A stretch of 64,000 nt of DNA. Origin: an uncultured bacterium. GTDB lineage: Bacteria > CSSED10-310. Positions 754 to 26,438 of the stretch are shown here, in pieces (the stretch's first letter is position 1; each line of letters starts with the position of its first letter). Under the pieces are notes generated by a model, which ran no database searches, was not told where the DNA came from, and saw only the letters and a program-made list of their open reading frames with translations. A program made the translations under genes and the position numbers. The stretch is taken from positions 18,637 through 82,636 of the forward strand of contig CAZELM010000002.1 of assembly GCA_964512995.1 (NCBI GenBank), read 5' to 3'.

Positions 754-964
754 GGTGAATCTTGTTCAGTGTTAATTGTTACAGCCAATAATACCAAAAG
801 CAGAATATCAGAGATTATTGGATGAGAGAACTTTTTTCACACCGTTTCAATCCGTGTCCATCCGTGGTTTGTTTTTTCTTTTCCGGTGAGGAGTCTCACA
901 CGAAGACGCGAAGACACGAAGACACGAAAAAATCCATACTTACAATATGTGAGAGTGATACAAC

Positions 965-997
965 AATTCCCGGACAGAAACGATCTGCCCGGGAATT
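965..997. terminator. Perfect 9-bp inverted repeat (aattcccgg-N15-ccgggaatt) followed by a T-rich tract; a possible weak or bidirectional terminator.
   Basis: Read directly: the two arms are exact reverse complements, and gtttctttcc follows on the plus strand. It lies between the 3' end of the giant minus-strand gene (1021) and the larB start. No clean U-tract exists for the minus strand. Confidence 0.3.
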
Positions 998-1020
998 GTT
1001 TCTTTCCGGCCGAGTGCCGG

Positions 1021-4000
1021 TTATCTTCTCGTCACTGATACGATCAGGAAGAGCGAGATCGCTGCCAGCATCAGGAAAATGCCCGATGGCGATGATGCCG
1101 GGATATATTCCATGATGGGAGTCGGTGTCGGACCCGTCTCATAACAGTAATCATAAATCCGTACATTATCCAGAAATACCATCGGCTCAAACCGATCATC
1201 CGGTTCAGGATAATGGACCGTTACGGGGAAGAAGGAGAAGAACCGTATGGATACGACCTGATCTCCAGCAAGTTGTTCCAATGGAAGACTCACATGGAAA
1301 TAATCATCCTGCTCGTCAACGACCGTATAGATATCATAGACCAGAGCACTGCCGTGAGCTTCCACCAGGAACATATCCTGATCCGTGATCCGGTCGCCTT
1401 TCTTCTGGGGACCGACGAAGTTCTTCAGCCGGACGTAGAAATCCAGAACGGCACTGCGGCGGATAGGTTCCGCGAAATTTACGGTCATCATGAGTTGCGC
1501 TTCATTGATTCCGTAACCGGTATCTTCCATACACCCTGCAAAGAATGCACAACTCCCGCCACTGAATGAATAGTTGACATCCTCCAGCACTCGGAGCCCC
1601 CATGTCGGACCGGATGTATCCTCCCAATGACTCAGCGATCCACCCTCAAATCCATCGTAGAAGACCACGCCAGGAATACAGGTCGGTGTGGGAGTGGGAG
1701 ATGGTGTCGGAGTCGGTGTATCCACACACTCCCCAATATGAATCCCCGGATCGGGTATCGGCTGCTGAACGGGAGTCCCCTGGTAATCAACATACCGGAT
1801 ATTGGAGTCTGAGCATTCGATCAGAGTATCCGATGAAAGCGGAACATCCGGAGAAACATGTACCTGGAAATTCACGTCAATGCTCTCCCCCACTCGTAAT
1901 CGGTCGAAATGCCAGATATATCGCCGCGGATCATCTGCAGAGGCAGTGGGAACGACGGTTGGAGCGACATTCCAGGAACCGGGAACAATATCCGTATACA
2001 CATTACTGCCATCCGGACACTGATGTGAAGCGCCACCAAACACTTCCTCGACATAGATATCTTTCCCCGCGAGATTGTTGATTACATCCGCCGCAATTTC
2101 CTGATACACATCCGCCAGATCATCCTCAGTCGGAGACCAGTAGTAGTTGCCGTGTTTGGCGGCTTCGGGAGTCGGCACAGAACCCCAATATTCCGGGTTG
2201 AATGGATCGGCAATCTCCCGCAACAGATCTTCGTTTATCAAAGTTCCCAGACCGATCGTATGGATCGTGGTGGCATACACCGATGCATAGTCACCCCAGG
2301 GTTGACTCAGCGAGATATGCCGAGCCATTTCACGGGCATGATCGATCGCATCATTGTCCCAGCCAGGAACATCTGCTGGTCCTGGAGTATAGAACCGGTT
2401 TGGACTCCGGTCTGAAAGCACGACCATGAATCGGTCGCCACGATGAGCAGGGGCAGGCGTCGGTGGAACCGGTGATCCTTCGGGTGTTGGCGGAGCGGGA
2501 TGGATGGGCATTGCACCGATGACATTTTTCGCATAATGCATTCCCGGTCCCAGTGCTCGAGCTCCACCCAAGGGTTCCTGAGACAGATGATCATGCCACC
2601 AGAATTGTTTATGCTGCGGGTCATCGGGATCATCCAGCACCCGCTGAACCGGTTCCGGCATCTCGTCCGGGAACACCCGCGGTACAGGATTGTATCCCGG
2701 CACTCCATTCGGAGACTGGGAATTGCCATAGAATACCAACCCACCGTAATCCTGAGAGCCGTAGATCGGAGGATTTTCCACCAGATAATCATAGAACTTC
2801 CAGGTTCCCCACAAAACATGAACATAGGGCCGATATGCGGTATCCAGATAGGGATCTTCTCCGATTGGCCCGTATGGCGGTTCTTCAAATTCATTGTATC
2901 CGGATTCAAATTGAAGCAATGTGTCGCTTTTAGCTACCACACACACCACATCCACCGGCTGGCGGATATACCGGATCGATCCGTCACTCGTGAGCGTCAA
3001 CCGAACCTGCAGGTTGTCATCCGGACAAATCGTACCACTGCTCAGATTTTCTTTAATGATGCGAATCCGCGGTGGTTCGATTGTGATGGGTGTGGGAGTC
3101 CCTTCAGGGGTATCGGTCGGGACTGGCGTATTTGTCGGCGTATTGCTGGGGGTCGGGGTTTGTGTCGGTGTGAGTGTTGGAGAAGGCGTTGGTGTACGCG
3201 TCGGCGAGTTGGTCGGAGTATTCGTGGGAGTCGGAGTATCAGTTGGTGTCTGGGTGGGCGTACTGGTCGGAGTGTTGGTTGGAGTCTGAGTTGGGGTATT
3301 CGTCGGGGTTCTGGTTGGTGCATTGGTGGGGGTTTCTGTCGGCGTATTTGTTGGCGTATTCGTCGGCGTATGGGTCGGTGTATTGGTTGCCGTCGGCGTT
3401 GCAGTGGGCGTATTCGTTGAAGTCGGCGTCATTGTCGACGTGTTCGTCGGTGTTGGGGTTTGGGTTGGCGTGTTCGTCGGTGTCGGGGTCCATGTCGGCG
3501 TATGGGTGAATGTCGGGGTTAATGTCGGAGTCTGCGTCGGCGTATTCGTCTCCGTCGGAGTCTGTGTTGGTGTGTTTGTAGGCGTTGGGGTCCATGTCGG
3601 TGTATTGGTGAATGTCGGGGTCCATGTCGGTGTCTGCGTCGGCGTGTTGGTCTCCGTTGGTGTCTGGGTTGGTGTGTTCGTCGGAGTGGGTGTTGATGTA
3701 GGCGTATTGGTCGGCGTTGGGGTACTGGTGGGGGTTTGGGTTGGCGTATTAGTCGGCGTCGGCGTCCATGTCGGCGTATTGGACGGCGTTGGCGTTTGCG
3801 TCGGGGTGTTGGTTGGCGTCCCGGTTGGAGCTCCGGTTGGCGTATTGGTCGGGGTGTTGGATGGTGTGGGGGTCTGGGTCGGAGTATCCGTGGGGGTACT
3901 CGTCGGTGTGTTTGTCGGTGTATTGGTTGGAGTAGGTGTCTGGGTTGGGGTGTCTGTTGGAGTGTCCGTGGGGGTATTGGTGGGCGTCGGTGTCGGTGTA

Positions 4001-5271
4001 TCGGTCGGAGTCTGGGTTGGAGTTGGCGTTGCAGTGGGTGGTTCGGGAGTGGGTGTATAGGTCGGTGGGATCGGCGTGGCTGTCGGTGTCCAGGTCGGCG
4101 GGATCGGTGTCGGTGTCAATGTCGGCGTATCAGTTGGAGTTGGTGTATCGATGGGAGTATTGGTGGGCGTGGGTGTAGATGTGGGAGTATTGGTGAAGGT
4201 TGGGGTATGAGTTGGTGTATGCGTTGGAGTTGGCGTTGATGTGGGAGTATTGGTTTCGGTCGGAGTGGAAGTGGGTGTGTTGGAAGGTGTGGGGGTAATC
4301 GTTGGTGTGTTGCTGGGTGTGCCAGTGGGAGCACCTGTTGGAGTTGAGGTGGGAGTATTTGATGGTGTCGGTGTTAAAGTCGGCGTGTTGGTATTCGTCG
4401 GAGTGAAAGTGGGAGAATTCGTGGGAGTCGGTGTTCGAGTGGGTGTATTGGTGGGTGTGGGAGTATTCGTTGGAGTATTCGTTGGCGTCGGCGTGAATGT
4501 CGGTGTGTTGGTGTTCGTTGGCGTCCGGGTGGGGGTATTGGTCGGAGTTCGCGTCGGGGTTCGTGTCGGGGTTTGCGTGGGCGTGTTGGTCGGTGTATTG
4601 GTCGGTCCAGCCGGCGTTGGTGTATCGTCGATCCACCATCCCGCCCGGATGATCGCATCCCGGGTCAAACCCATGTTCTCGCCCCAGTTATAGTTTGGAA
4701 TACACGTGAACGAATCAATATCCTCAATCAGGTATTTATGAAAAGTTAAACCGGCCAGATTGTCCGTACATGGTTTGACCAGATCATTCATATGAAAGGG
4801 AAATGAACCAAAATTAGTAACCCTGATTACCAACCGGTCACCAAAGCTCAATGAAATCGGATACCCAATACCCCAGTCCCGCAAATCCAACGCATAGAAT
4901 CCACTGGAATTATAGACAATAACGGGATTCGGGGAAGGATTGGATGGAGAACTCAGGATTGGCTTTCCCTGCGCATCCAGCGGTGGATTCTTGTAATACC
5001 TGACCACATACTCATAATCCATCGGATTGCCAAACAACATGACACCAATGTGAGTGATCGTAACGGGTGCTCCAGCGGTATACGTCACAATCACAGAGTC
5101 TCCTGTTCCACAGGATAAATATTCGGAATTGATATTATTCAGATAAAAAAATGGCTGAGCATCAGACCATCCATCGTACTGGAAGTACCAGTAATACCCG
5201 GCTCGGGTGCTGACTGGTAAAAAAAACAAAAAACACAATACCATAACACCGAATAAAGCTTTGAACCGCAT
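1021..5271 (-). CDS. Giant (1416 aa) secreted surface protein. It has an N-terminal signal peptide, a roughly 510-aa Thr/Pro-rich linker, a C-terminal globular region and a C-terminal sorting-signal-like tail.
   Basis: Uninterrupted 4.25-kb ORF. The N-terminus [28 protein letters not shown] is a classic signal peptide. The C-terminus [26 protein letters not shown] has the motif / TM helix / basic-cluster architecture of a PEP-CTERM or PGF-CTERM sorting signal. Confidence 0.8.
3095..4623 (-). repeat. Coding tandem repeat of about 1.5 kb encoding (T-P-T-x-T-P)n with a hexapeptide period; low-complexity and GT-rich on the plus strand.
   Basis: The protein runs from [19 protein letters not shown] to [20 protein letters not shown]. 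The plus-strand DNA is built from degenerate ggtgt/ggcgt/gtcgg units. Four long antisense ORFs on the plus strand (VGV repeats) are artefacts of the periodicity. Confidence 0.85.
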
Positions 5272-8138: not shown

Positions 8139-9197
8139 TTAAGAACCTAAAATCTCCTGCTCCCACAAGTTTTCCACAGCGGATTTGGAAAAGTCCGAGA
8201 GCCGATGGCGCTGGCCTTTCAGTACCGCATCCCGTACATGCGTATCGGTGACGAGCACATGCATCAGCTCCGCCAACTCCACCATATTCGTCTTATTCCG
8301 AAACAGGACACCGCTCGAACCCAATGTCCACGGCACCGCAGCCGCACGATAGGCTAGAATCGGGAGATCGAAATACATGCTTTCCACCAGCGGAACACCG
8401 AATCCTTCATGATCGCTCATAGAAACAAACAGATGTGCCAGTCTGTAATACGTCACCAGCTCCCCGAATTCAACATGACCCGGAATGTACACATCACCCA
8501 GATGCCATTGCCGAGCCATCCGGACCAGATGATCGTAATACGATTCGAACCCATCCCATTTCCCGATCAGAAACAACCGGCAACGCCTGTTGACGAAGCG
8601 TTTATAATACGCATACAGCCGAAGGAGATCATGCTGGCATTTATTGGGCGTGATCCGGCCGACAAACAGAACATTCGTGAAATCCCCCCGAAACATCTCC
8701 GCGAGAACCGGATTGACGGGGATATCGAACAGATCGAAATCGATATATATCGGCAAAACCCCCGTGTTCGTAAAATCCATTTCCTGCAGTTCCAGCCGGT
8801 TAAATTCCGAATCTCCCAAAGCCCGGTGGGGCACATCCCGAAGGTGTGCAAGTTCCTCCCGGCCGATCCGGGATATTCGCTGGAGATGGGGGTATCCCCG
8901 CAACTGGTGGACTGGTGTGATATTGTGATACACGAGAATCCGTCGGCCCGTTGCAGCGCGAAAAATCTGATTCAATGACGACGGCAGCGCGTAATGGAGA
9001 ATCGTCACGCTGTCCGGCCGGTTCAGTTCGGGAAATCCACTCACCGGTGTCGGACTGACCGGCACATCGGCATCTTTCTGGAGACAGATGATATGCGATT
9101 CATGGCCGATCGACTGAAAATACCGGTGCATGGCCATGGCATTGTTCCCGATCGCGTCCCCGTCATGCAAAGCCGGAAGAAGCTGGATGATCTTCAT
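8139..9197 (-). CDS. Glycosyltransferase family 4 (GT-B).
   Basis: Contains the EGFGVPLVESM (E-x7-E) GT4 motif and a KCQHDLL region. It is a tandem paralog of the next gene and overlaps it in ATGA fashion at 9194-9197. Confidence 0.8.
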   Translation of the reverse strand: MKIIQLLPALHDGDAIGNNAMAMHRYFQSIGHESHIICLQKDADVPVSPTPVSGFPELNRPDSVTILHYALPSSLNQIFRAATGRRILVYHNITPVHQLRGYPHLQRISRIGREELAHLRDVPHRALGDSEFNRLELQEMDFTNTGVLPIYIDFDLFDIPVNPVLAEMFRGDFTNVLFVGRITPNKCQHDLLRLYAYYKRFVNRRCRLFLIGKWDGFESYYDHLVRMARQWHLGDVYIPGHVEFGELVTYYRLAHLFVSMSDHEGFGVPLVESMYFDLPILAYRAAAVPWTLGSSGVLFRNKTNMVELAELMHVLVTDTHVRDAVLKGQRHRLSDFSKSAVENLWEQEILGS

Positions 9198-10258
9198 GTC
9201 CCGAGCTTCCCGATCAGTTCGTTGACCCGCTGGCGCATGTCCATGGCCAGGAAGGCGGACAGGTGGTTCTGCTGCTTGCGGACCACGGCTTCTTTGAATG
9301 ATGGATTCCGGCGGAGCAGATCGGCGATCTCCGCAATCACTGCCGGGTTCTTGTCGTGAATCTGAATCCCGGCATCGCCCATTGTCTCGGATACCGCTCC
9401 AGCCTTGTACGCGATTACCGGAACATCAAAAACCATCGCTTCGAGGAGCGGCACACAGAATCCCTCGTGTTCGCTCATGCATACGAACACATCGGCCATG
9501 CGATACAGAGCGACCAGCTCATCGTCATCGACCATACCGGTGAAGATGACATTGGCTACACCCAGTTCCCGAACCATGGCAGACATGGCATCCGCATACC
9601 GCCAGCAGTTCCGGACGTCACCGACCAGTATCAACCGTGCATTGGGATCCAGATGCCGCTGGTAAAATGCAAAGGAACGGATGATATCCTGATGGCATTT
9701 ATTGGGAGATACCCGGCCGACGAAGAGCCAGGTTCGCTGACGGGATGCGAACTGGGTCTGGAACACGCGGTTCGGCGTCAGGGATAGCCGGCTCAGATCC
9801 ACAATGATCGGCAGAACCTCCACATTGCGATATCCGATGTCGTTCAGGATGCCGGCATTGAAGGTCGAATCCGCCCAGGCGAATGCCGTACGATCTTTGA
9901 GTTTCCGAAGCTGAATCATTCCCTGAGCAGCCAGTTCCGTCATTTGCGGACTGATTCCGTAAAACCAATGCGCGGGTGTGATATTGTGAAAGATGATTCC
10001 CAGCCGGTCTGGAATCGTCATCAGATAATCGGTAATCTCCGATCCCACGGAAAAGTGGTATATCAATATGTGATCGGCCTGACTGATCCGGCGATATAGC
10101 TTCCAGTGTTCCGACTGATCAATCAGATAGGGATGAATGACACCGGCATAGATCCGGCTCTCATGCCCCAGCGACCGGAAAATATCCCGCAGTGCCAGTG
10201 TGTCGTCGCCGATGGCATCCCCATAAGAAAAATTGGGGAGCATCTGATGGATGATCAC
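9194..10258 (-). CDS. Glycosyltransferase family 4 (GT-B); paralog of 8139..9197.
   Basis: Contains EGFCVPLLEAM. Its N-terminus MIIHQMLPNFSYGDAIGDD is similar to MKIIQLLPALHDGDAIGNN in the neighbouring gene. Confidence 0.8.
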   Translation of the reverse strand: MIIHQMLPNFSYGDAIGDDTLALRDIFRSLGHESRIYAGVIHPYLIDQSEHWKLYRRISQADHILIYHFSVGSEITDYLMTIPDRLGIIFHNITPAHWFYGISPQMTELAAQGMIQLRKLKDRTAFAWADSTFNAGILNDIGYRNVEVLPIIVDLSRLSLTPNRVFQTQFASRQRTWLFVGRVSPNKCHQDIIRSFAFYQRHLDPNARLILVGDVRNCWRYADAMSAMVRELGVANVIFTGMVDDDELVALYRMADVFVCMSEHEGFCVPLLEAMVFDVPVIAYKAGAVSETMGDAGIQIHDKNPAVIAEIADLLRRNPSFKEAVVRKQQNHLSAFLAMDMRQRVNELIGKLGT

Positions 10259-11370
10259 GGATGAGCCTCCGGCAATGGCGTGCCCGGCGTTCCGGAAGGA
10301 ACGGATTCCGCCGCAGGTTCGTTTCCCGGTGTCTGATCGGTCGCGGGAGTTGACTCCGAAATGGATTCCCCGGTGGCGGTTCCATCGTCAACCGAGGATT
10401 CTGTTGTAGCCGTTGGTGGGGGCGGGGGTTCGACGTATTTCCCCGTCATCACGATACCGGTGATCTTCCACTCCGATACCTCCCACTCCTGAGTCGGATC
10501 GACCCGGTCCGCCTGGATGAACAGGGAGATCAACACATCCCCGGTCAGATCCCGCCAGTGGGCACTGGCAAACTGATAGTCCAGGACATCATCGCGAATC
10601 TGGTCATGCCGATGTTCCCACTCCCCCGGCGGATTGGATTGAAAAATCCGCGATACATCGGTATACGTCGGGGATTTGAAATAATCGGCATAAAAGGCAT
10701 AGATGGAGCGATCATCGGCGGGTACCCGCATCTCGAACCGTCGGCCCAGCGCAATCCGCGGATCCATGGTATCGGAATCGAGTTCCTGCGCGTTGGGAGG
10801 GAGCGGCAATTCGATGTCTTTCGCGATGCGATACCATTGAGAGAAATGAATCGACGCCCATGATGCCGTATTGATCACGATCATGAACCCGACAATACCC
10901 GCCGTTACTTTGAACAACATCCCGTCAAACTCCGGTTTGGGACGTTTTTCCTGGGAAATCTTGCCGATCCAAGCACCGACAATCCAGATCGCCGTCCCTC
11001 CGATCCACGACATCCATGACATCGGATCTCCCAGCCAGTTCCATGGATCATTCATGAAAAAAATCTGGTAGAAAACAGGAAGCCCGGCGTTGAGGAACCC
11101 AGCGATCACCCAGATCACCGGAGATTCCGTGAAAAGGAGTCTGCCGATCAGAAATCCACCGCCAAGAAATGCGATGACATTGGGAATCAAAAGAAGCACT
11201 TCCGGTTTTTTTTCGCCTGCAACATCCCGCAATGCATACAACAATCCGAAAAATAAAATACCGTGAAGAATCTGCGCGCTCAGTATCGACAGGATCGATA
11301 TCCCCACATTCTTGACGCTTCTCGTTTGATAAAATGGTATTTTGCTCATAATCGTGTCACCTGATTTCAT
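10255..11370 (-). CDS. Polytopic membrane protein (about 5 TM) with an extracytoplasmic domain and a Pro/Thr/Ser-rich C-terminal tail; function unknown.
   Basis: Hydrophobic helices occupy the first 170 aa. The C-terminus is PPPPPTATTESSVDDGTATGES. The gene sits inside the GT4 operon with 4-nt overlaps on both sides. Confidence 0.55.
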   Translation of the reverse strand: MKSGDTIMSKIPFYQTRSVKNVGISILSILSAQILHGILFFGLLYALRDVAGEKKPEVLLLIPNVIAFLGGGFLIGRLLFTESPVIWVIAGFLNAGLPVFYQIFFMNDPWNWLGDPMSWMSWIGGTAIWIVGAWIGKISQEKRPKPEFDGMLFKVTAGIVGFMIVINTASWASIHFSQWYRIAKDIELPLPPNAQELDSDTMDPRIALGRRFEMRVPADDRSIYAFYADYFKSPTYTDVSRIFQSNPPGEWEHRHDQIRDDVLDYQFASAHWRDLTGDVLISLFIQADRVDPTQEWEVSEWKITGIVMTGKYVEPPPPPTATTESSVDDGTATGESISESTPATDQTPGNEPAAESVPSGTPGTPLPEAHP

Positions 11371-12539
11371 GATTTCATCCGATGAATGAGATTCTCATAT
11401 TTTGTCTCGATCACCGGCCAGTTGTAATGTGTCTGATAATACGCTCGACCCATCCGGCCCATCTGGTCCGCGATCTCCCGGTTGGTGACAAGATAGGTCA
11501 GGCACGCCGCAAATTCCTCATAATTTCTGTAAAACAACCCCCCATTGGATCGCCGGCATTGCCCCTCCAGAACTTCACATTTCGCATTGACCAGCACAGG
11601 CCGGGCCACTCGCCACGACTCGAGCAGAACCATGGACAGGCTTTCAAAAGGACTGGGCATCACCAGTAACTGCGTCCGTTCCAGTGCCCGTTGTTTGGCG
11701 GATTCGTCCACAAATCCCAGATGCCGGATTCGGGGATGGTCCGGGATGGGAATCACGCTGGAGCCGATCAGTGCCAGGTTAAGGGCTCTCTTTTCCGTCT
11801 GGATGTATCGCTGGAACATCCGGAAAAGATGATCGCAGCCTTTGTTTTTATCGATCCGGCCGACGTAAATGATGTATGGGTCGATAGCATCGAGAACCGC
11901 CTGAAATCCATAATCCGGCGCTGGGAGATCCGGTTGTTCGACCAGTCCGACCCCCACAATATCACTGGGAATCGTTTCATTTTTTGCGAGTTGCTGGATC
12001 AGGCATTTTTCTTCGTGGGAGTTGTAAGCAATGGCTCCCGGCAGATTGAATATTCCGGTGAAAATACTCAGATGAAGCGCCGGATCATGCTCGGCGGTCG
12101 GCACCAGCAGTGCTTTGGAGCGCACAGCCCGGAGGCATTCCACGGTGGTCCAGTACCGATAACTGAACAGGATCCAGACATCGATATCCGACCGGTGGCG
12201 GATGGCTTTCACCAGCGCGGGACAATAGGGACCATTCTGCCGGATCCATTCCAATTGATGCACCTCGGGCTGAGGCGCATGAAACACCAGATTCTGAATG
12301 CTCTCGAAGCGCCGGATGTTGCGCTGGTGTCTGACGGGGAACCGGTGAACCGGAACGTCATTGATGAGAACCGTTCCCTGGTGGTATTCGTTTTTCCATG
12401 TGACATAATCCCGTGCACAGGTTGTGAAGACTTCCACCGGATACCGCCGGCGCAGATGTTCGGCCACCAACCGGCAATGAAGCTCCGCTCCGCCGGAAAT
12501 ATCCAGGCCGTACCGTTGGATTACACACCCGATTTTCAT
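11367..12539 (-). CDS. Glycosyltransferase family 4-like (GT-B).
   Basis: MKIGCVIQRYGLDISGGAELHCRLVAEHL and ESLSMVLLESW. I place the start at the internal M (12539) by analogy with its paralog; the track ORF extends to 12572. Confidence 0.75.
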   Translation of the reverse strand: MKIGCVIQRYGLDISGGAELHCRLVAEHLRRRYPVEVFTTCARDYVTWKNEYHQGTVLINDVPVHRFPVRHQRNIRRFESIQNLVFHAPQPEVHQLEWIRQNGPYCPALVKAIRHRSDIDVWILFSYRYWTTVECLRAVRSKALLVPTAEHDPALHLSIFTGIFNLPGAIAYNSHEEKCLIQQLAKNETIPSDIVGVGLVEQPDLPAPDYGFQAVLDAIDPYIIYVGRIDKNKGCDHLFRMFQRYIQTEKRALNLALIGSSVIPIPDHPRIRHLGFVDESAKQRALERTQLLVMPSPFESLSMVLLESWRVARPVLVNAKCEVLEGQCRRSNGGLFYRNYEEFAACLTYLVTNREIADQMGRMGRAYYQTHYNWPVIETKYENLIHRMKS

Positions 12540-12549
12540 AGGCATCCGA

Positions 12550-13704
12550 TCAGGCGCACAGCAGTTTCTCATACTTGGCCATGATTGCCAGCCAATTATA
12601 ATGCTCCAGATAATACCGGTTTCCCTGATTACCCAGAGTGATGCACAGATCGTTTCGATGCATCAGCAACTGGAGACAGTGAAAAAACTCATCGGCATTC
12701 CGGTAATAAAGACCTCCTCCGGACCGGATACACTGGCCTTTGAGAACATCGCACTGCCCGTTGCAGAGCACTGGTTTGCAGAGTTTCCATGCTTCGAGGA
12801 CCACCATGGACAGGCTTTCCAGCCGGCTGGGCATGATCAGCGCACGAGCGTTGGCGAGGATCGCCAGTTTTTCGGCTTCGGACAGAACGCCCAGGTAATG
12901 GATATTGGCATGATCGGGCAATGGCATCTCCTGTTTCCCAATCAGAGCCAGTTCAGGACATTGAGCGGAATCGCGGAAATACCGGAGAATCAACTGAATC
13001 ATTTCCATGCATCCTTTGGCCTGCTCGATCCGGCCGATGTACAGGAAGTACGATTCCGGCAGACTGAATCTTCGGAGTATATCCGGATCATCGGATGAAT
13101 TCACGTCTGGCAAACCGACTCCCACAATCTCGCCAGGAACGTGTCCGTTCCCGGACAGATACTGGATGAGCTGGCGTTCTTCGATGGAGTTGTACGCGAT
13201 GGCTCTGGGTCGCGTCAGCGACTCCCGATGGATCGGTAGATAAATGGATCTATCATGTTCAGCCGTCGGCACCAGAATGCTCCGGGAACCATGTCGTTTC
13301 AGGAGTTGCCAGGTTGTCCAGTAGCGGAATGAGAAGAGAATCAAGCGGTCGATGTCCGATCTGGAATCGACGTAATCGATCAGTTCCGGGCAATACGGAC
13401 CGTGATCCTCCAGATACCGAATCTCTTCTTCCGGAGATGGGTAGCCGTGAAGAACGTGGAAGGCGAGGATGTCGAAGTCCGGGGACCGCTCCCGGTTCAC
13501 AGGAAACCGGTGAACCGGTATGCCGTTGACTGAACCGGTACCGGGTGCCAAGACATTTTTCCATGTCAGATAATCCATAGCGCATGTTGTGGCGATTTCG
13601 ACCTGATGCCGGCCGGCAAGGTGCTCCGCCACCAGCCGGCAATGATATTCAGCTCCTCCGACAATTTCTACTCCGTATCTTTGAACAACAAAGAGAAGTT
13701 TCAT
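12550..13704 (-). CDS. Glycosyltransferase family 4-like (GT-B); tandem paralog of 11367..12539.
   Basis: MKLLFVVQRYGVEIVGGAEYHCRLVAEHL and ESLSMVVLEAW. I chose the start at M17 (13704), which removes a 26-nt overlap with the upstream gene. Confidence 0.75.
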   Translation of the reverse strand: MKLLFVVQRYGVEIVGGAEYHCRLVAEHLAGRHQVEIATTCAMDYLTWKNVLAPGTGSVNGIPVHRFPVNRERSPDFDILAFHVLHGYPSPEEEIRYLEDHGPYCPELIDYVDSRSDIDRLILFSFRYWTTWQLLKRHGSRSILVPTAEHDRSIYLPIHRESLTRPRAIAYNSIEERQLIQYLSGNGHVPGEIVGVGLPDVNSSDDPDILRRFSLPESYFLYIGRIEQAKGCMEMIQLILRYFRDSAQCPELALIGKQEMPLPDHANIHYLGVLSEAEKLAILANARALIMPSRLESLSMVVLEAWKLCKPVLCNGQCDVLKGQCIRSGGGLYYRNADEFFHCLQLLMHRNDLCITLGNQGNRYYLEHYNWLAIMAKYEKLLCA

Positions 13705-13726
13705 GAATGACAGCCGGAAGCCGGTA

Positions 13727-14251
13727 TCAGGAGGGATCTTTGAACTGGACAAGTTTTTCCAGAGTCTTGATCCGCTTCTCCAGAAATTCCTTTTCCCGTT
13801 CGATACGATCCACCCGATTCCTGAGCGCGGAATGATCGATCTGGAGACGGGTGATTTCCCGAACCAGGTTGTGCAGAAGATGGGCGAAGTAGAGATTGAT
13901 CTGAGCCTGGCGGCCGATAAGATGATCGGTATAGAGCCGGATCACCGGTCGAACGACTTTTTTGAGCGCGACGATCAGTTTGCCTTTCAACCCGGATCGG
14001 TGGGAGGAGATGATGTAACTGGAGTTGATATTCCAGGCGTGATCCGGCGACCGGAGCCGCTCCAGTAAAACAGAATCGATATCCGCTTCCTCAGCGAACT
14101 GAAGGATCTTGGCGTCCGCCAGTTCAGCGATGCTTTCTTCGGTATAAATCCCGGCTTTCTGCTTTTCCGCAATGGCCTGACGAATCCGCTCCATGATCTT
14201 TGTCACGTCCACATCTGCGCCGATTTCAAAATTCATCCATTCATCACTCAT
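13727..14251 (-). CDS. Hypothetical coiled-coil protein.
   Basis: 174-aa ORF. Its C-terminal half (LRNRVDRIEREKEFLEKRIKTLEKL) looks like a heptad coiled coil. I recognise no known domain. Confidence 0.45.
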   Translation of the reverse strand: MSDEWMNFEIGADVDVTKIMERIRQAIAEKQKAGIYTEESIAELADAKILQFAEEADIDSVLLERLRSPDHAWNINSSYIISSHRSGLKGKLIVALKKVVRPVIRLYTDHLIGRQAQINLYFAHLLHNLVREITRLQIDHSALRNRVDRIEREKEFLEKRIKTLEKLVQFKDPS

Positions 14252-15180: not shown

Positions 15181-16755
15181 GTGAAATGGATAGCTAACAG
15201 TTTCGGATGTATTTTGGGAATCGTCATCAGTGTGCTCATTTTTGACGTAATGATGAACTCGCTCCATGCAGATTCTGCCACGGCAACGAAGACAGAATCA
15301 GCCCTCCAGATGGTTGCTCAAGCAGTGGATAAATTGGAAAAAAATACATTTGCTCCAATGAACTCCCAGAAAATTATCTATGGGGGAATCCAGGGGATGT
15401 TCCGGACACTGGATCCCTACAGTCAGTTTTTGGACGAAGATGTCTTCAGTTATATGCAGGCGCAGCAGCAAGGAAGTTTTTTTGGGATCGGTGTTTCCTT
15501 TGATATCAAGGATGGACAGCTCATGGTGATTGCTCCCATCGAAGATTCACCGGCATGGAAACTGGGAATCCAACCGGGCGACATCATCGTTGAAATAGAA
15601 GGGGAATCAACCGTAGGGATCACGTCTGCAGATGTACTGAAAAAGTTACGCGGACAGAAAGGGTCCAAAGTAAACATAGCTGTGAAGCGTTATGGGCATG
15701 ACGAACCGATTCACTTCGAAATTGTACGGGACAAGATCAATCTGACCTCCGTTCGCGGCGGATTTTTACTGGATGACCAGACCGGTTATGTGCGGTTGAC
15801 AGAGTTTTCCGCCACATCAGCCAGTGAGTTGCTCGATGCGCTCTACACATTGAAAAGCAAGGGAATGAAGCAGCTCATTCTGGATTTGCGGTTCAATGGC
15901 GGAGGATTGCTGAACGCCGCAGATGATGTTTCATCCCTCTTTTTGAAAAAAGGTGCATTGATCGTTTCTACAAAAGGAAGAAATCCCGACAATCAGATGG
16001 AGTTAGCTGTCAAACAGGATGGAACGTTCATCGATCTTCCACTGATTGTCCTGGTCAACGAAAGCAGTGCCAGTGCGTCGGAGATTGTAGCTGGCACGAT
16101 ACAGGATCACGACCGGGGATTGATCGTTGGAACGACCACTCATGGTAAGGGTCTGGTTGGCAGTCAGATTCCGAGCAGACTGGGAACAGCCGTCCAGATC
16201 ACCTCTGCGCAATATTTTACGGCATCCGGCCGCTTCATTCAGAAACCGTTCAGCATTCCTCACCGGAAGTCACTCAAAGGGGAAGGCACTATGCTGAATG
16301 CAGAGGGCGACAAATCCATTCATTACACGGAAAAAGGCCGCAAAGTATTTGGAGGGGGCGGAATAACACCGGATGTCATCATTCAGGATTCCACTCAAAC
16401 ACCGACATACTACATGATCGAAAATCGGCGGTTATTTTTTGATTTTGCGGTGCAACACGGTGAATCACTCAAACCCATTACACCGGAATTGATCATCTCC
16501 GATGCAGTGTATGACATGTTTCTGGCTTACTGCGAAGAACAGAAAGTGCCCATTTCGACATCCGAAATCGAAAAAGACAAAGAAGCCATCAAAGTCGCTA
16601 TAAAAAGGGAACTGCTCAATGTGTTTGTGAATACCACCGTTGGTGAAAAAATCCGTGTGGAGAATCTGAACATCGTCCAGGAAGCGCTAAAACTGTTTCC
16701 CAAACTGAGTACCATACTCGCGAGCGATTCCACAGAGACACGTCCGGTGAATTAA
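15181..16755 (+). CDS. ctpA: Carboxyl-terminal processing protease (S41 peptidase with PDZ domain).
   Basis: PDZ motif GIQPGDIIVEIEG, the catalytic Ser motif NESSASASEIVAG and the Lys motif HGKG are present. It begins with a GTG start, as translated in the track. Confidence 0.85.
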   Translation: MKWIANSFGCILGIVISVLIFDVMMNSLHADSATATKTESALQMVAQAVDKLEKNTFAPMNSQKIIYGGIQGMFRTLDPYSQFLDEDVFSYMQAQQQGSFFGIGVSFDIKDGQLMVIAPIEDSPAWKLGIQPGDIIVEIEGESTVGITSADVLKKLRGQKGSKVNIAVKRYGHDEPIHFEIVRDKINLTSVRGGFLLDDQTGYVRLTEFSATSASELLDALYTLKSKGMKQLILDLRFNGGGLLNAADDVSSLFLKKGALIVSTKGRNPDNQMELAVKQDGTFIDLPLIVLVNESSASASEIVAGTIQDHDRGLIVGTTTHGKGLVGSQIPSRLGTAVQITSAQYFTASGRFIQKPFSIPHRKSLKGEGTMLNAEGDKSIHYTEKGRKVFGGGGITPDVIIQDSTQTPTYYMIENRRLFFDFAVQHGESLKPITPELIISDAVYDMFLAYCEEQKVPISTSEIEKDKEAIKVAIKRELLNVFVNTTVGEKIRVENLNIVQEALKLFPKLSTILASDSTETRPVN

Positions 16756-17010: not shown

Positions 17011-17658
17011 TCAGTTTTTCTTGGTTTTGGGAGTAGCGCTCAGGATAGCACTGAAAATCCATTTCGATGCATAGAGCATCCAGATGAAAGCAGGAACGAT
17101 CATCGAACCAGCCTGTTCCATGAACCCATGCATGAATCTCAGTAATTTAATTTTATAATACCAGACCTGCACATTGGGAATGGTCGGATTGATGATGAAT
17201 GTCTGATTTGCGAAATAATACGATTGAAGTCCTAATTGAATATGAATGAGATGACTGATACAGAGAAAAACACTGCCAGCGAAAAAAAACACAACCAATC
17301 GTTTCCAACTGATAAATGGAGAGGCGAATAAAAATGCCAGGAATGGAATGATATTGAAATGGACGGTATTCAGAAAGATGTCGATGCTGACCGGTTTTGG
17401 GTTTTTGATTGGAGCGGGTCCCCCGACATACGGTTCAAACAATACTGAGAAAGAGCCTCGATCCTCGGTATACCTTGAATCCATGACTTCCAAATTCCTG
17501 CCGACCAGATAGAGCGTTGACTTTCTTAGAAACGCATTATATGGCTCCAGGATAAATCCCCATAAAAAAAATGCCAGGATGCTAAAAAAAATGAACTTAA
17601 CAAAAAAAACCCACCAACCCAGACCAGACGGGCGCCAAAATTTTTCCCAGTTATTCAA
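17011..17658 (-). CDS. Polytopic membrane protein immediately downstream of the exosortase-like gene; function unknown (possible sortase-associated).
   Basis: 215 aa, highly hydrophobic, with several predicted TM segments. It is same-strand and 66 nt downstream of 17725..18345. Confidence 0.45.
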   Translation of the reverse strand: MNNWEKFWRPSGLGWWVFFVKFIFFSILAFFLWGFILEPYNAFLRKSTLYLVGRNLEVMDSRYTEDRGSFSVLFEPYVGGPAPIKNPKPVSIDIFLNTVHFNIIPFLAFLFASPFISWKRLVVFFFAGSVFLCISHLIHIQLGLQSYYFANQTFIINPTIPNVQVWYYKIKLLRFMHGFMEQAGSMIVPAFIWMLYASKWIFSAILSATPKTKKN

Positions 17659-17724
17659 TGAGCCACTCCTGTTCCAATATTCTTGTTAACGAGCCAGATT
17701 AATGATCTAGGAATGAAAGGCCTC

Positions 17725-18345
17725 TCACCCAAATGAAGGCTGTATTTTGTCTGGTGATTCTCCGCTGGGATCATCCGGGCTTTTTGGATTCTCCTCGCGA
17801 ATCATTTTTTCTTTCCAGAACACCCAAAAACCGATTACGAATAAAATGAAAATACCCTGCCAAAGAAACTCGTGATAAAAATCGAAATGTTTACGCCATC
17901 GCATGCCGATAATGCCTAATGCAGCCATGCGGATGGTATTGATGGTATAGAGACCAAACCAGCCGAATAAAAGACCGTATACCTTTTCCAGAACTTTTGC
18001 CGGATAAGCCAGAACCGCTGCCGCATAGATCATCATGCCAAAAACACCGGCACAGTGATAGATAATCGTAAAACGAAATCCGCCGGGTAACAGAACAACC
18101 GCATCATTCGCCATTGCCTCGATTCCAATCATTTTCAAAACAATAATAACGGATTTGGCCATTAACATAGGCAATTTTACCGAGATATATTGCTCCGAGA
18201 CACTCCAATGCAGAAAAAAGTAAAACAAGACACAGAAATAGCCGAATAACAAATAAAACTTGAATAAGACTATGTTCTGTCTGAATAAATCGCCAATTCG
18301 ACGTAACGTCAAAATATTCCTCCTTCGATTGCCGGGATTTTCCAT
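17725..18345 (-). CDS. Exosortase/archaeosortase-family transpeptidase-like membrane protein (short form).
   Basis: A Cys lies in a TM segment (IIYHCAGVFG) and is followed 41 residues later by INTIRMAAL. This is the spacing between the catalytic Cys and the conserved Arg in ArtA, and it resembles the CSG...ANxxRI pattern of exosortases. Confidence 0.55.
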   Translation of the reverse strand: MENPGNRRRNILTLRRIGDLFRQNIVLFKFYLLFGYFCVLFYFFLHWSVSEQYISVKLPMLMAKSVIIVLKMIGIEAMANDAVVLLPGGFRFTIIYHCAGVFGMMIYAAAVLAYPAKVLEKVYGLLFGWFGLYTINTIRMAALGIIGMRWRKHFDFYHEFLWQGIFILFVIGFWVFWKEKMIREENPKSPDDPSGESPDKIQPSFG

Positions 18346-18425
18346 CCTTACTTGATCCCGGAATTTTTACGATTATATTTATAGAAGCGTATTATCGTCA
18401 AGTCAGTGATATGTAGGAGTCCTGA

Positions 18426-19313
18426 ATGGTTACTGAATCCTCAATTCCCCAATCCCAGAAATTCGATCGATTGCATCAACTAGCACTCACACTGTATCGG
18501 AACGGCCAGCGAGAGACTGCGCTGCATTACTGGATGAAGATCAAGGACGAGTTTCCGGAATTTCCGGATATCGATGAATGGATTGATGCCGCATCTCGAC
18601 CGATTCACAATCCCAAATCCACGCCACCCCCCTCACCGGATCCATCTGTTTTCCGGCAACAAAAAGAAATGATCAATCGGGCAAAACGTGGAGACCGGAT
18701 TGGACATACATTTACCCCCAAGCCGGGACTTGAACTCCCTCGCCAGTATTTCCGTCATCGACACATCGGGTTGATCTTTCTGATCGGTTTTTTTGTCTAC
18801 CTGTTGGCCAGTTTCAATAATAACCGCTCTGTCCTGTTCAAGCTTTATCCCGAAACCGGGCGAGTCACATATTCACAAGGAAGTTTTTTTCCTTATGGCT
18901 GGGAGAAAGGAACTGAACTGAGTATTGGATTGGAACCTGGATGGGAACAGGATCTGGATGATCCGGAACTCACCAATACATTGATACATGGATTACGAAT
19001 CAAAAATTCCGGAGATTTCGATCAGCTTCTGATTACCCTCTATCAAAAACTCGGTCGAAAAGCGCTTCACGTGCAGAGCATTGAAAAGCAACAGCAGGCA
19101 ATCTATTATTTCAAAAAAATCGAAAAGGCCAAATATTTAGACCTGGTAAAGGATGAACTCAGCCAGGGATTCCTCAACCTGGCGACTCTTTATTGGGAGC
19201 AAAACCAAGATATCCGGTCTGCGGCGCAATACCTTCAGATCGCTCGATATTACGCACCATCCAATCCCGGTATCGATCACCTTCAGGAAAAGCTGTCGGA
19301 AACCGACCAATGA
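18426..19313 (+). CDS. Hypothetical protein with one TM segment and TPR-like repeats.
   Basis: ALHYWMKIKDEFPEF and LATLYWEQNQDIRSAAQYLQIARYYAP are TPR-like. There is a central hydrophobic segment IGLIFLIGFFVYLLASF. Confidence 0.5.
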   Translation: MVTESSIPQSQKFDRLHQLALTLYRNGQRETALHYWMKIKDEFPEFPDIDEWIDAASRPIHNPKSTPPPSPDPSVFRQQKEMINRAKRGDRIGHTFTPKPGLELPRQYFRHRHIGLIFLIGFFVYLLASFNNNRSVLFKLYPETGRVTYSQGSFFPYGWEKGTELSIGLEPGWEQDLDDPELTNTLIHGLRIKNSGDFDQLLITLYQKLGRKALHVQSIEKQQQAIYYFKKIEKAKYLDLVKDELSQGFLNLATLYWEQNQDIRSAAQYLQIARYYAPSNPGIDHLQEKLSETDQ

Positions 19314-24002: not shown

Positions 24003-25391
24003 ATGAAGGTTATTCTCGCCCGTCCCTGGAATCATACATCGATGCTGATCCCCAATCACGGATTGGGGTATCTCGCGGGAGCGTTGAAACGGGACGGGCA
24101 TGATCCTATGGTTATCGACTGCATCCGGGACACGCTCTCGCCACAGCAATTCCTTGAAACCATCCGGAATCACCATCCGGATGTGATTGGTTTTCAAGTT
24201 TATACGTTTGATCTGCCGATCTTACAGGAATATATCGATCGGTTACAGCATGAAAAGATTACGATTATTGCCGGAGGACCTCATCCATCCGCAGATCCCC
24301 ACTCATTTGCCCATCAGTTTCCCGAAATTGACTTTTTTTTTCGTGGAGAAGCCGATCTCGGACTTCCTCGGTTGATTCATTTATTACACAACAATACAAT
24401 TGATGAGTCTGCCCTGCGGAGTATACCCGGTCTGGTCTGGCGCTCCGGACAGTCCATTCAACTCAACCCATGCGCCTACCCAGACGATCTGGACACACTG
24501 GGCTTCCCCGACTGGGATCAGATATCACCATTGTCATACCCGGTTGCACCCCAGGGCACATTCACCAAACGGCTCCCATACGCACCCATCATAGTCACCC
24601 GGGGGTGTCCATACCCATGTTCATTCTGCGCCGGCAAACTTATGAGCGGCAGAAAGATACGATCACGAACAGCGGACCATGTCATTTCTGAACTGCGGTT
24701 TCTGGTCGATCGCTACGGAATCCGTGAATTTCATATTCAGGACGACAATTTCACATTCCATCGGGAGTTTGTGCTGGAGTTTTGCCGGAAACTGCAGGAA
24801 AGCCGTCTGGATCTGGCCTGGGCCTGTCCCAATGGCATCCGGCTCGATTCTTTGGATCCAGAGGTCTTACATGCGATGGAGTCTGCCGGGTGTTACTCGG
24901 TAGCCGTCGGCATCGAATCCGGGTCACAACGGATACTCGATCTGATGCAAAAACGTGCATCACTCGCTGATCTCTGTGCCAAGGTTCATCTGATCCGGAA
25001 GACGACGGCCTGGTATCTCACGGGATTTTTTATCCTGGGCTATCCCGGTGAAACGGAAGAGGAGATCAAATCTACCATCCGTTTATCCAAAAAACTTCCA
25101 CTGGATAAGGCCAATTTTGGCATCCTGATGCCTTTGCCCGGAACAGTGGCTGCCATCGAGGCGGAGAAATGGGGATGGACTCCCGGAGAAAATCAGACGC
25201 GAATGAGTGAATATCGAAGTCAATTCATATCACAGGGAATCTCTCCCGGGAAATTCCGGTGGCTTTTTCGGTGGGCGTTTATCAGTTTTTATGCCAGACC
25301 CCGGATCATTTACCGATTCATCTCCCAGATCAAATCCTGGGACCAGATCAAAATTCTCTGGAACCGGTTGAAAGATGTGATCCTCCCATGA
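24003..25391 (+). CDS. B12-binding-domain radical SAM protein (class B rSAM).
   Basis: The N-terminus is cobalamin-binding-like (VILARP...VIGFQVYTFDLP). The CxxxCxxC motif is RGCPYPCSFCAG. Confidence 0.85.
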   Translation: MKVILARPWNHTSMLIPNHGLGYLAGALKRDGHDPMVIDCIRDTLSPQQFLETIRNHHPDVIGFQVYTFDLPILQEYIDRLQHEKITIIAGGPHPSADPHSFAHQFPEIDFFFRGEADLGLPRLIHLLHNNTIDESALRSIPGLVWRSGQSIQLNPCAYPDDLDTLGFPDWDQISPLSYPVAPQGTFTKRLPYAPIIVTRGCPYPCSFCAGKLMSGRKIRSRTADHVISELRFLVDRYGIREFHIQDDNFTFHREFVLEFCRKLQESRLDLAWACPNGIRLDSLDPEVLHAMESAGCYSVAVGIESGSQRILDLMQKRASLADLCAKVHLIRKTTAWYLTGFFILGYPGETEEEIKSTIRLSKKLPLDKANFGILMPLPGTVAAIEAEKWGWTPGENQTRMSEYRSQFISQGISPGKFRWLFRWAFISFYARPRIIYRFISQIKSWDQIKILWNRLKDVILP

Positions 25392-26434: not shown

Positions 26435-26438
26435 GCTC

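What the first reader, a model, noticed from the sequence alone, without database searches (positions are those of the whole stretch)
17011..18345. Short exosortase/archaeosortase-family protein (Cys-41-Arg spacing) with a membrane partner
The 206-aa membrane protein has a Cys in a TM helix (YHCAGVFG) and 41 residues later the motif INTIRMAAL. This matches the spacing between the catalytic Cys and the conserved Arg in ArtA, and it resembles the exosortase CSG...ANxxRI signatures. At 206 aa it is far shorter than the roughly 280-500 aa I expect of exosortases. A second polytopic membrane gene follows on the same strand. The only in-window protein with a compatible C-terminal tail is the giant PT-repeat protein about 12 kb away.
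Basis: partly seen in the sequence, partly recalled or inferred. Interest (0 to 1): 0.65.

Follow-up and report, generated by a model that had tools for sequence, protein, structure and literature searches.

The report
Divergent exosortase H system with partner
The 206-aa gene is a genuine short exosortase closest to exosortase H, paired with a distant relative of the exosortase H-associated membrane protein, and probably processes the giant PT-repeat protein 12 kb away; it is a new lineage-specific branch of a known sorting system, not a new kind of system.

Summary
ORF 17725..18345(-) encodes a 206-aa membrane protein with Cys98 (YHCAGVFG) and Arg139 (INTIRMAAL) 41 residues apart. It passes the exosortase/archaeosortase signature model (TIGR04178, 46.1 bits, cutoff 23) and Pfam PF09721. 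Cys98, Asn136, Arg139 and His158 are invariant in 23 homologs.

Shortness is not unusual, because ten named subfamily models are 150-174 positions long. The protein is closest to exosortase H (63.4 bits, cutoff 86). Homologs at 40-47% identity pass that cutoff.

The downstream 215-aa gene is adjacent in 10 of 12 reference loci. Its family gives sub-threshold, collinear hits to NF041730, the exosortase H-associated membrane protein.

The giant protein (1021..5271-) ends in IPASSPSG, a TM helix and RR. Nine of ten homologs examined keep a [IVL]P[AST][ST]S..[GS]-TM-basic tail, a variant of IPTLxxWG-CTERM that the curated model does not recognise.

The lineage is the uncultured candidate division CSSED10-310.

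Verdict: a real but expected kind of system, a new diverged XrtH-type branch. One further lead is that the partner may be a Cys-less relative of the sortase itself.

The parts
17725..18345 (-). Short exosortase, XrtH-like (206 aa). Putative catalytic residues are Cys98 (18052-18054), Arg139 (17929-17931) and His158 (17872-17874). Asn136 is also invariant, and K178 is always K or R.
   Evidence: TIGR04178 46.1 bits (cutoff 23), PF09721 28.8 (25.7), XrtH 63.4 (86). Invariant residues are and coordinates. The AF2 model has pLDDT 88.
17011..17658 (-). Partner membrane protein (215 aa), a distant relative of the exosortase H-associated membrane protein. Invariant residues are N102, P114, H136, H139, E181, Q182, G184, P189 and W193. 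It has no Cys at the position matching the sortase's Cys98.
   Evidence: It lies directly downstream of the sortase in 10 of 12 reference loci and also in L014, L015, L018 and L019. Nine of 15 family members hit NF041730 at 15.8-28.1 bits (cutoff 35), collinearly. The AF2 model has pLDDT 86.
18372..18401 (-). Sigma-70-like promoter match (TTGACG-18-TATAAT, 11 of 12) 27 bp upstream of the sortase start codon. It is a candidate promoter for the two-gene operon.
   Evidence: The total number of matches in the region is no higher than in shuffles, so this is a consensus match only.
1021..5271 (-). Candidate substrate: a 1416-aa secreted protein. It has an N-terminal signal peptide ([24 protein letters not shown]), a PT-rich linker (residues about 211-736, nt 3064-4641), a conserved C-terminal core of about 700 aa, and a sorting tail.
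   Evidence: Translation is. No Pfam or NCBIfam domain was found.
1024..1104 (-). Tripartite C-terminal sorting signal of 27 aa: IPASSPSG (motif), [17 protein letters not shown] (TM helix), RR (basic).
   Evidence: It is the only such tail in the window. Nine of ten homologs examined carry a [IVL]P[AST][ST]S..[GS]-TM-basic tail. It is not recognised by TIGR04174 although the positive control scores 47-48 bits.
18426..19313 (+). Divergently transcribed 295-aa protein with weak TPR-like hits. It is a conserved neighbour of the sortase, and its functional link is uncertain.
   Evidence: Homolog adjacent in 8 of 12 loci and in L018 and L019. Unrelated TPR proteins lie two genes upstream of the sortase in L009 and L014. 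Pfam TPR hits are sub-threshold.
15181..16755 (+). S41 C-terminal processing peptidase (Ctp/Prc type), convergent with the partner gene. This is conserved context, and a role in the sorting system is unproven.
   Evidence: TIGR00225 278.6 bits (cutoff 218.6). It is conserved next to the pair in the CSSED10-310 loci but absent from L009, L010 and L014.
8139..13752 (-). Cluster of four GT4 glycosyltransferases and a 371-aa polytopic membrane protein, between the sortase pair and the substrate gene. It is possibly exopolysaccharide-related context.
   Evidence: Pfam Glycos_transf_1 on the called genes. The gene order is conserved in lineage relatives, including L021, which ends with the tail-protein ortholog.

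Best explanation
The pair 17725..18345 and 17011..17658 is a two-gene operon. It encodes a diverged exosortase H-type sorting enzyme and its accessory membrane protein, in a bacterium of candidate division CSSED10-310. The mechanism is inferred by analogy with characterised ArtA and with the Cys/Arg/His triad proposed for the family. A Sec-exported protein carries a C-terminal tripartite signal: the motif [IVL]P[AST][ST]S..[GS], a TM helix, and an Arg/Lys cluster. This signal holds it in the inner membrane. The sortase's Cys98, helped by Arg139 and His158, attacks a peptide bond in or next to the motif. The three residues sit at the ends of three adjacent helices on one membrane face. The attack releases the TM-basic stub and forms an acyl-enzyme intermediate. 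The mature protein is then passed to water or to an unidentified acceptor such as a lipid or a surface polysaccharide. The partner probably forms a complex with the sortase and assists with substrate or acceptor handling. The giant PT-repeat protein (1021..5271) is the most likely substrate. Shown here: family membership, conservation of the residues, gene adjacency, conservation of the tail, and co-occurrence. Inferred: cleavage, the acceptor, the partner's role, and which membrane face carries the active site.
For: Family membership: TIGR04178 46.1 bits against 23 and PF09721 28.8 against 25.7. XrtH is the subfamily nearest its own cutoff, at 63.4 of 86.

Conserved residues: C98, N136, R139 and H158 are invariant in 23 homologs down to 41% identity.

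Link to XrtH: homologs at 40-47% identity pass the XrtH cutoff. P0030 (L010) scores 96.8, P0033 98.6, P0034 (L014) 91.6, P0032 87.8 and L011 86.5.

Partner: it lies directly downstream in 10 of 12 loci. Its family hits NF041730 XrtH_assoc in 9 of 15 members in the same register. The partner-family HMM finds the gene downstream of the bona fide XrtH in L014 (E = 2e-6) and in L015 (E = 4e-32).

Signal: L014's neighbouring protein has a tail, VPSLGSAG-TM-RRRR, that passes TIGR04174 when tested alone (25.2 bits against 20.5). L010's adjacent protein ends in IPSLSWWG-TM-KRIK. The window tail [12 protein letters not shown] is 27 aa, the same as the model length. Nine of ten homologs examined keep the tail module. 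These include P0049, which lacks the C-terminal domain, and P0054, which has a different N-terminal architecture.

Co-occurrence: sortase P0002 and tail protein P0046 are in the same assembly, GCA_008633355.1. L021 shows the same gene order from the S41 peptidase to the tail protein as the window.

Literature: the Cys/Arg/His triad and the tripartite signal architecture are described in bioRxiv 10.1101/2023.06.07.544157. ArtA Cys173, Arg214 and Arg253 are from PMC9263693.
Against: All three components fall below the curated cutoffs of the XrtH system. The sortase scores 63.4 against 86. The window's own partner has no direct NF041730 hit. The window tail has no TIGR04174 hit at E <= 10.

Only one tail-bearing protein is visible in 64 kb. 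The rest of the genome could not be scanned, so a many-substrate pattern and genome-wide co-occurrence remain unshown.

Linkage of the sortase and tail protein within CSSED10-310 may only reflect general synteny among relatives.

The Schekmanbacteria locus L011 has an XrtH-scoring sortase with no adjacent partner.

There is no experimental evidence for any XrtH system; nothing was found in the searched literature.
Confidence: 0.75

Rival explanations
1. The sortase is real, but the giant protein is not its substrate. Its C-terminal [12 protein letters not shown] would then be an ordinary tail anchor conserved with the protein family, and the true substrates are encoded elsewhere in the genome.
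For: The tail gives no hit to any curated sorting-signal model. Most tail-bearing proteins found are homologs of a single protein family, so the tail could be conserved by descent rather than as a portable module. No tail proteins lie within 10 kb of the sortase in the CSSED10-310 loci.
Against: The motif is conserved (P2 in 10 of 10, S5 in 8 of 10, G or S at position 8 in 10 of 10), while the PT linker just upstream of it varies. P0049 keeps the tail without the C-terminal domain, and P0054 carries it on a different architecture. Related tails sit next to XrtH genes in L010 and L014. The sortase and a tail protein co-occur in GCA_008633355.1.
Confidence: 0.15
2. It is an archaeosortase B-like enzyme specific for VPXXXP-CTERM signals. 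The window tail begins IPASSP, which fits (V/I)PxxxP.
For: The ArtB model TIGR04144 scores 63.2 bits, about the same as XrtH. JGI annotated some homologs as archaeosortase B. Four of ten tails have Pro at motif position 6.
Against: The ArtB cutoff is 150, so 63.2 falls far short, whereas XrtH's cutoff is 86. More distant homologs pass XrtH and never ArtB. Pro at position 6 is not conserved (4 of 10), while S5 and G/S8, which are shared with IPTLSEWG, are conserved. The partner family matches the XrtH-associated protein.
Confidence: 0.05
3. The 215-aa downstream gene is only a syntenic neighbour with no role in sorting.
For: It has no direct family hit. Synteny within the lineage is general. 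L011 has a sortase but no partner.
Against: Adjacency persists in loci where all other neighbours differ: L009, L010, L014 and L015. The gaps are short or the genes overlap. The family is related to the one NCBI curators named XrtH-associated.
Confidence: 0.05

Closest known systems
Exosortase H system: XrtH (TIGR04177), XrtH-associated membrane protein (NF041730) and IPTL-CTERM / IPTLxxWG signal (TIGR04174)
   Same: It has the same three-part make-up: a short sortase of about 160-200 aa with the Cys/Arg/His residues, a membrane protein of about 190-250 aa immediately downstream, and target proteins ending in I/V-P-x-x-S-x-x-G, a TM helix and a basic cluster 27 aa long. Sortase homologs at 40-47% identity pass the XrtH cutoff. 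One of them (L014) lies beside a protein whose tail passes the IPTL-CTERM model.
   Different: All three window components are below the curated cutoffs: 63.4 against 86, no direct hit, and no hit. The motif is IPA(S/T)S..G and lacks the Leu and Trp of IPTLxxWG. A Pro usually sits 4-5 residues before the basic cluster. The clade is confined to candidate division CSSED10-310 and similar uncultured bacteria.
Archaeosortase A (ArtA) / PGF-CTERM of Haloferax volcanii, the experimentally characterised family member
   Same: It belongs to the same superfamily. The Cys-41-Arg spacing is identical (Cys173/Arg214 against Cys98/Arg139), and a basic residue lies 39 positions further on (Arg253 against K178). 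The substrate signal is tripartite.
   Different: The ArtA model is 271 positions long and scores only 19.1 bits (cutoff 75). ArtA recognises a different motif (PGF), is archaeal, and depends on lipid attachment through PssA/PssD. None of this is shown here.
Archaeosortase B / VPXXXP-CTERM (TIGR04144) and exosortase X (NF046081)
   Same: They are short sortases of similar length and score similarly (63.2 and 63.7 bits).
   Different: Their cutoffs are 150 and 170, so the scores fall far short. The VPXXXP pattern is not conserved in the lineage's tails.
XrtA / EpsH with PEP-CTERM
   Same: It is an exosortase-family member, and it lies next to a glycosyltransferase cluster, which recalls the link between EpsH and exopolysaccharide loci.
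   Different: Only the C-terminal core of PF09721 (positions 106-252 of 254) is matched. No PEP-CTERM tails are present in the window.

Membership tests
Exosortase/archaeosortase superfamily | Signature HMM TIGR04178 at or above 23 bits, and Pfam PF09721 at or above 25.7 bits | tested here: met
   46.1 bits and 28.8 bits.
Exosortase/archaeosortase superfamily | Near-invariant Cys, Arg and His (the proposed catalytic triad) | tested here: met
   C98, R139 and H158 are invariant in 23 of 23 homologs. The triad is described in bioRxiv 10.1101/2023.06.07.544157.
Exosortase/archaeosortase superfamily | Polytopic membrane protein with the catalytic residues at one membrane face | tested here: inconclusive
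   The AF2 model (pLDDT 88) places C98, R139 and H158 near the ends of three consecutive helices, and the hydropathy is consistent with this. Which membrane face carries them was not determined, and the model coordinates could not be measured.
Exosortase/archaeosortase superfamily | Cleavage or transpeptidation of a C-terminal sorting signal | not testable with these tools
   This requires biochemistry or proteomics.
Exosortase H (XrtH) | TIGR04177 at or above 86 bits | tested here: not met
   The window protein scores 63.4 bits. Clade members P0028 and P0029 score 80.0 and 77.1. More distant homologs score 86.5-98.6.
Exosortase H (XrtH) | Adjacent XrtH-associated membrane protein (NF041730 at or above 35 bits) | tested here: not met
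   The window partner has no hit at E <= 10. Nine of 15 family members score 15.8-28.1 bits in the same register. Homology is likely, but membership at the curated cutoff is not met.
Exosortase H (XrtH) | Cognate IPTL-CTERM proteins (TIGR04174 at or above 20.5 bits) in the genome | tested here: not met
   The window tail and the L010 tail give no hit, while the positive controls score 47-48 bits. L014's isolated tail scores 25.2 bits. The rest of the genome was not available.
Archaeosortase B (ArtB) | TIGR04144 at or above 150 bits, and VPXXXP-CTERM targets | tested here: not met
   63.2 bits. Pro at motif position 6 occurs in only 4 of 10 tails.
   No such hit at E <= 10.

The most novel reading that the evidence does not exclude
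The partner, and by extension the XrtH-associated membrane protein family, may be a degenerate Cys-less paralog of the exosortase core. The functional unit would then be an enzyme/pseudo-enzyme heterodimer, in which the partner's invariant His136/His139 and E181/Q182 replace the sortase's Asn136/Arg139 and His158/Gln163. The evidence has three strands. The two AF2 models have the same order of secondary-structure elements at nearly the same residue numbers. The profile-profile score of 26.0 exceeds the reversed controls (about 15) and all 60 block shuffles (maximum 24.1). A collinear global alignment of 198 columns matches P115 with P114, Q163 with Q182 and W174 with W193, and leaves Cys98 opposite a gap.
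Probability: 0.35. Interest if true: 0.55.

Novelty: new member of a known kind. Interest (0 to 1): 0.3.

Why it matters
Exosortase systems are defined almost entirely by comparative genomics, and each pairing of a sortase with a signal marks a set of surface proteins. This locus adds a branch in a candidate phylum with no cultured members. The sortase, the accessory protein and the signal have drifted together below the curated thresholds, so current annotation calls the sortase a generic family member and leaves the other two unnamed. Recognising the IPA(S/T)S..G-CTERM tail would allow surface proteins of CSSED10-310 genomes to be annotated. It is also a natural example of sortase and signal co-evolving. 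If the partner proves to be a Cys-less paralog of the sortase, that would suggest how short exosortases work as complexes.

Tried and rejected
- **Word-indexed homolog search with the giant protein's last 259 aa.** It gave no hits, not even to itself. The exhaustive representative search was used instead.
- **Curated sorting-signal models on the window tail and the L010 tail.** Neither gave a hit. The positive control showed that the IPTL-CTERM model is present and sensitive.
- **Tail-bearing proteins within 10 kb of the sortase in the CSSED10-310 loci.** None were found.
- **Pfam and NCBIfam on the giant protein.** No domains were found.
- **Literature.** Haft et al. 2012 is not held. No paper mentions IPTLxxWG together with exosortase.
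- **CAAX-protease alternative.** Rejected, because there was no hit.
- **ArtB/VPXXXP reading.** Rejected on score and on motif conservation.
- **Terminator after the partner gene.** No convincing terminator-like site was found. The terminator-like sites on that strand lie inside the sortase gene.
- **TPR-like neighbours.** The window's 295-aa protein is not detectably homologous to the TPR proteins of L009 and L014.

Full report
**Observation**

The minus strand carries two consecutive ORFs: 17725..18345 (206 aa, ATG start) and 17011..17658 (215 aa, TTG start). They are 66 bp apart. The 206-aa protein has Cys98 in YHCAGVFG and Arg139 in INTIRMAAL, so the spacing is exactly 41 residues. Both proteins have several hydrophobic helices.

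The ArtA comparison also stands. The residues critical for Haloferax volcanii ArtA are Cys173, Arg214 and Arg253 (PMC9263693), which gives spacings of 41 and 39. In the window protein, R139 + 39 is K178, and that position is K or R in 23 of 23 homologs.

**Family of the 206-aa protein**

- NCBIfam places it in the exosortase/archaeosortase family: signature model TIGR04178 scores 46.1 bits against a cutoff of 23. Pfam PF09721 scores 28.8 against a gathering score of 25.7.
- No CAAX-type or other unrelated family appears.
- No named subfamily cutoff is reached: XrtX 63.7 of 170, XrtH 63.4 of 86, ArtB 63.2 of 150, XrtY 48.3 of 160.
- The subfamily models are themselves 150-174 positions long.
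- A database search found 35 homologs. In an alignment of 23 of them, down to 41% identity, Cys98, Gly100, Asn136, Arg139, His158, Glu159 and Gln163 are invariant. The proposed family triad is Cys/Arg/His (bioRxiv 10.1101/2023.06.07.544157).
- An AlphaFold model built on this alignment is confident (pLDDT 88.1). It shows helices 25-46 and 48-72, a small three-stranded sheet at 78-93, and then helices 99-113, 118-149 and 151-181. Cys98, Arg139 and His158 lie toward the ends of three consecutive helices, which is compatible with one active site at one membrane face. Which face that is was not determined.

**Lineage and relation to exosortase H**

Related loci come from metagenome-assembled genomes of candidate division CSSED10-310, from unnamed bacteria, and from one Candidatus Schekmanbacteria genome. 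Within the close clade, identity to the window protein is 49-72%.

| Homolog | Identity to window | XrtH score (cutoff 86) |
|---|---|---|
| P0030 (locus L010) | 47% | 96.8 |
| P0033 | 44% | 98.6 |
| P0034 (locus L014) | 44% | 91.6 |
| P0032 | 47% | 87.8 |
| L011 | 40% | 86.5 |
| P0028 (clade member) | 51% | 80.0 |
| P0029 (clade member) | 43% | 77.1 |
| window protein | n/a | 63.4 |

Scores are, identities. The window protein is therefore on a diverged branch next to, or at the edge of, exosortase H.

**The partner**

- A homolog of the 215-aa protein lies immediately downstream of the sortase in 10 of the 12 reference-genome loci. L004 ends too early to tell, and L011 has none.
- It is also downstream of the sortase in L014, L015, L018 and L019.
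- The adjacency persists in L009, L010, L014 and L015, where every other neighbour differs. It is therefore not just lineage synteny.
- The window protein has no family hit of its own. When 15 family members were scanned individually, 9 hit NF041730, "exosortase H-associated membrane protein". Scores were 15.8-28.1 bits against a cutoff of 35, always with protein residues of about 17-145 matched to model positions of about 3-131. L015, L018 and L019 behave the same way.
- An HMM of the partner family finds the gene downstream of the bona fide XrtH of L014 at E = 2e-6.
- The partner is therefore a distant relative of the known XrtH accessory protein. Its invariant residues are N102, P114, H136, H139, E181, Q182, G184, P189 and W193.

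**The candidate substrate and its signal**

The giant ORF 1021..5271(-) has four parts:
- a signal peptide ([24 protein letters not shown])
- a PT-rich linker at residues of about 211-736
- a core of about 700 aa with no Pfam or NCBIfam domain
- the ending [27 protein letters not shown]

It is the only ORF in the window with a motif, TM helix and basic tail.

An exhaustive search with the last 716 residues found 24 relatives. I examined eleven of them. Ten carry a C-terminal tail, and nine of those fit [IVL]P[AST][ST]S..[GS], then a TM helix that often has a Pro 4-5 residues before its end, then an Arg/Lys cluster. P0055 has a shifted ITPSTSVSG variant, and P0052 has no tail.

Motif conservation, counted in the window tail plus those nine, is P2 in 10 of 10, S5 in 8 of 10, and G or S at position 8 in 10 of 10.

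The tail behaves as a module. P0049 lacks the C-terminal domain but keeps the tail, and P0054 has a different 1,170-residue N-terminal architecture.

Comparison with the canonical IPTLSEWG motif:
- The window tail shares I1, P2, S5 and G8, and the same 27-aa length.
- TIGR04174 does not score the window tail or the L010 tail at E <= 10, although synthetic canonical tails score 47-48 bits.

Bridging cases:
- In L014 the protein two genes upstream of XrtH contains VPSLGSAG-TM-RRRR. This scores 25.2 bits on TIGR04174 when tested alone (cutoff 20.5) and 19.2 bits within the full protein.
- In L010 the protein immediately upstream of XrtH is a choice-of-anchor J protein that ends in IPSLSWWG-TM-KRIK.
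- A profile of the lineage's tails ranks the L010 tail as the best non-training hit among 2,143 ORF tails, at E = 0.05.

Co-occurrence:
- The closest sortase homolog (P0002, with its partner) and the tail protein P0046 are in the same assembly, GCA_008633355.1, on different contigs.
- P0054 comes from a sibling sequencing run of the one that yields the window's contig.
- Locus L021 shows the same gene order as the window: S41 peptidase, a small gene, GT×2, a membrane protein, GT×2, DapF, IMPDH, then the tail protein.

**Mechanism**

I propose a diverged XrtH-type sorting system. The substrate is exported and held in the membrane by its C-terminal helix, with the basic cluster in the cytoplasm. 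The sortase cleaves in or beside the IPA(S/T)S..G motif through Cys98, assisted by Arg139 and His158. The mature protein is then released or transferred to an acceptor. The partner acts in a complex with the sortase.

Shown: family membership, residue conservation, adjacency, tail conservation and co-occurrence. Inferred: cleavage, the acceptor, the topology and the partner's role.

The flanking glycosyltransferase cluster and the S41 peptidase are conserved context within the lineage. They are absent from the distant loci, so I do not count them as parts of the system.

**A less certain lead**

The partner may be a Cys-less relative of the sortase core.

| Element | Sortase | Partner |
|---|---|---|
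| three-stranded sheet | 78-93 | 58-95 |
| helix | 99-113 | 96-112 |
| helix | 118-149 | 118-150 |
| helix | 151-181 | 161-196 |

- These elements are from the two AlphaFold models.
- The profile-profile comparison scores 26.0 (P = 0.0047). Reversed profiles score about 15, and 60 block shuffles give a mean of 15.4, sd 2.5 and maximum 24.1.
- A global alignment is collinear over 198 columns (P = 2e-4, probability 21%). It pairs P115 with P114, N136/R139 with H136/H139, Q163 with Q182 and W174 with W193, and leaves Cys98 opposite a gap.
- Two partner-family members also hit the XrtG exosortase model weakly.
- Direct superposition was impossible with the available libraries.

**Verdict**

The system is a new, lineage-specific branch of a known kind: the trio of exosortase H, its accessory membrane protein and IPTL-CTERM. 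All three parts have diverged beyond the curated thresholds. A specialist would find it useful but not surprising.

Noticed in passing
window 3064-5271 (-): The window's tail protein is 1416 aa, but most homologs are about 720-740 aa. They start with a signal peptide directly before the region that matches window residues from about 725 onward. The window copy therefore has a lineage-specific N-terminal domain (residues 1-210, no family hit) and a PT linker of about 525 aa fused in front of the conserved core. The PT codons also explain the strong GC and AT skew at 2001-4000.
   Followed up: partly
window 13727-14251 (-): This 174-aa protein has no family assignment, yet it is the most conserved gene of the neighbourhood after RpoD (63-73% identity across seven loci). 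It sits between the SDR and S41 genes and the glycosyltransferase cluster.
   Followed up: no
window 24003-28927 (+): Three consecutive radical SAM genes, two of them with B12-binding domains, are followed by a lipid A acyltransferase-like gene. The group is conserved in order across the lineage. Similar radical SAM pairs also lie next to the tail-protein orthologs in L016, L020 and L021.
   Followed up: no
L016 2857-4671, L020 12237-14021, L021 12272-14086: In three relatives the tail-protein gene is followed, convergently, by a 594-604-aa membrane protein. In L020 this protein has a weak PMT_2 hit (GT-C glycosyltransferase), so it could glycosylate the Pro/Thr-rich linkers. In the window the corresponding position (1-1020, minus strand) holds a different gene.
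   Followed up: no
L014 4180-6396 (residues 688-713 of 738): In L014 the IPTL-like sorting module is followed by about 25 more residues instead of ending the protein. L010's tail also continues for 11 residues after the basic cluster. NCBIfam has a 'midcut-by-XrtH' family (NF033207), so internal XrtH signals are a known phenomenon.
   Followed up: no
L009 9450-9995 and L014 8162-8731: In the two distant XrtH loci a secreted or lipoprotein-like gene of about 185 aa and a TPR protein lie directly upstream of the sortase on the same strand. The two TPR proteins are weakly similar (E = 6e-8). The window instead has a divergently transcribed 295-aa TPR-like gene that is not detectably homologous to them.
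   Followed up: partly
L011 9923-10606: The Schekmanbacteria sortase passes the XrtH cutoff (86.5 bits) but has no partner gene next to it. A convergent methyltransferase-like gene follows after 340 bp. The partner is therefore not always adjacent.
   Followed up: partly
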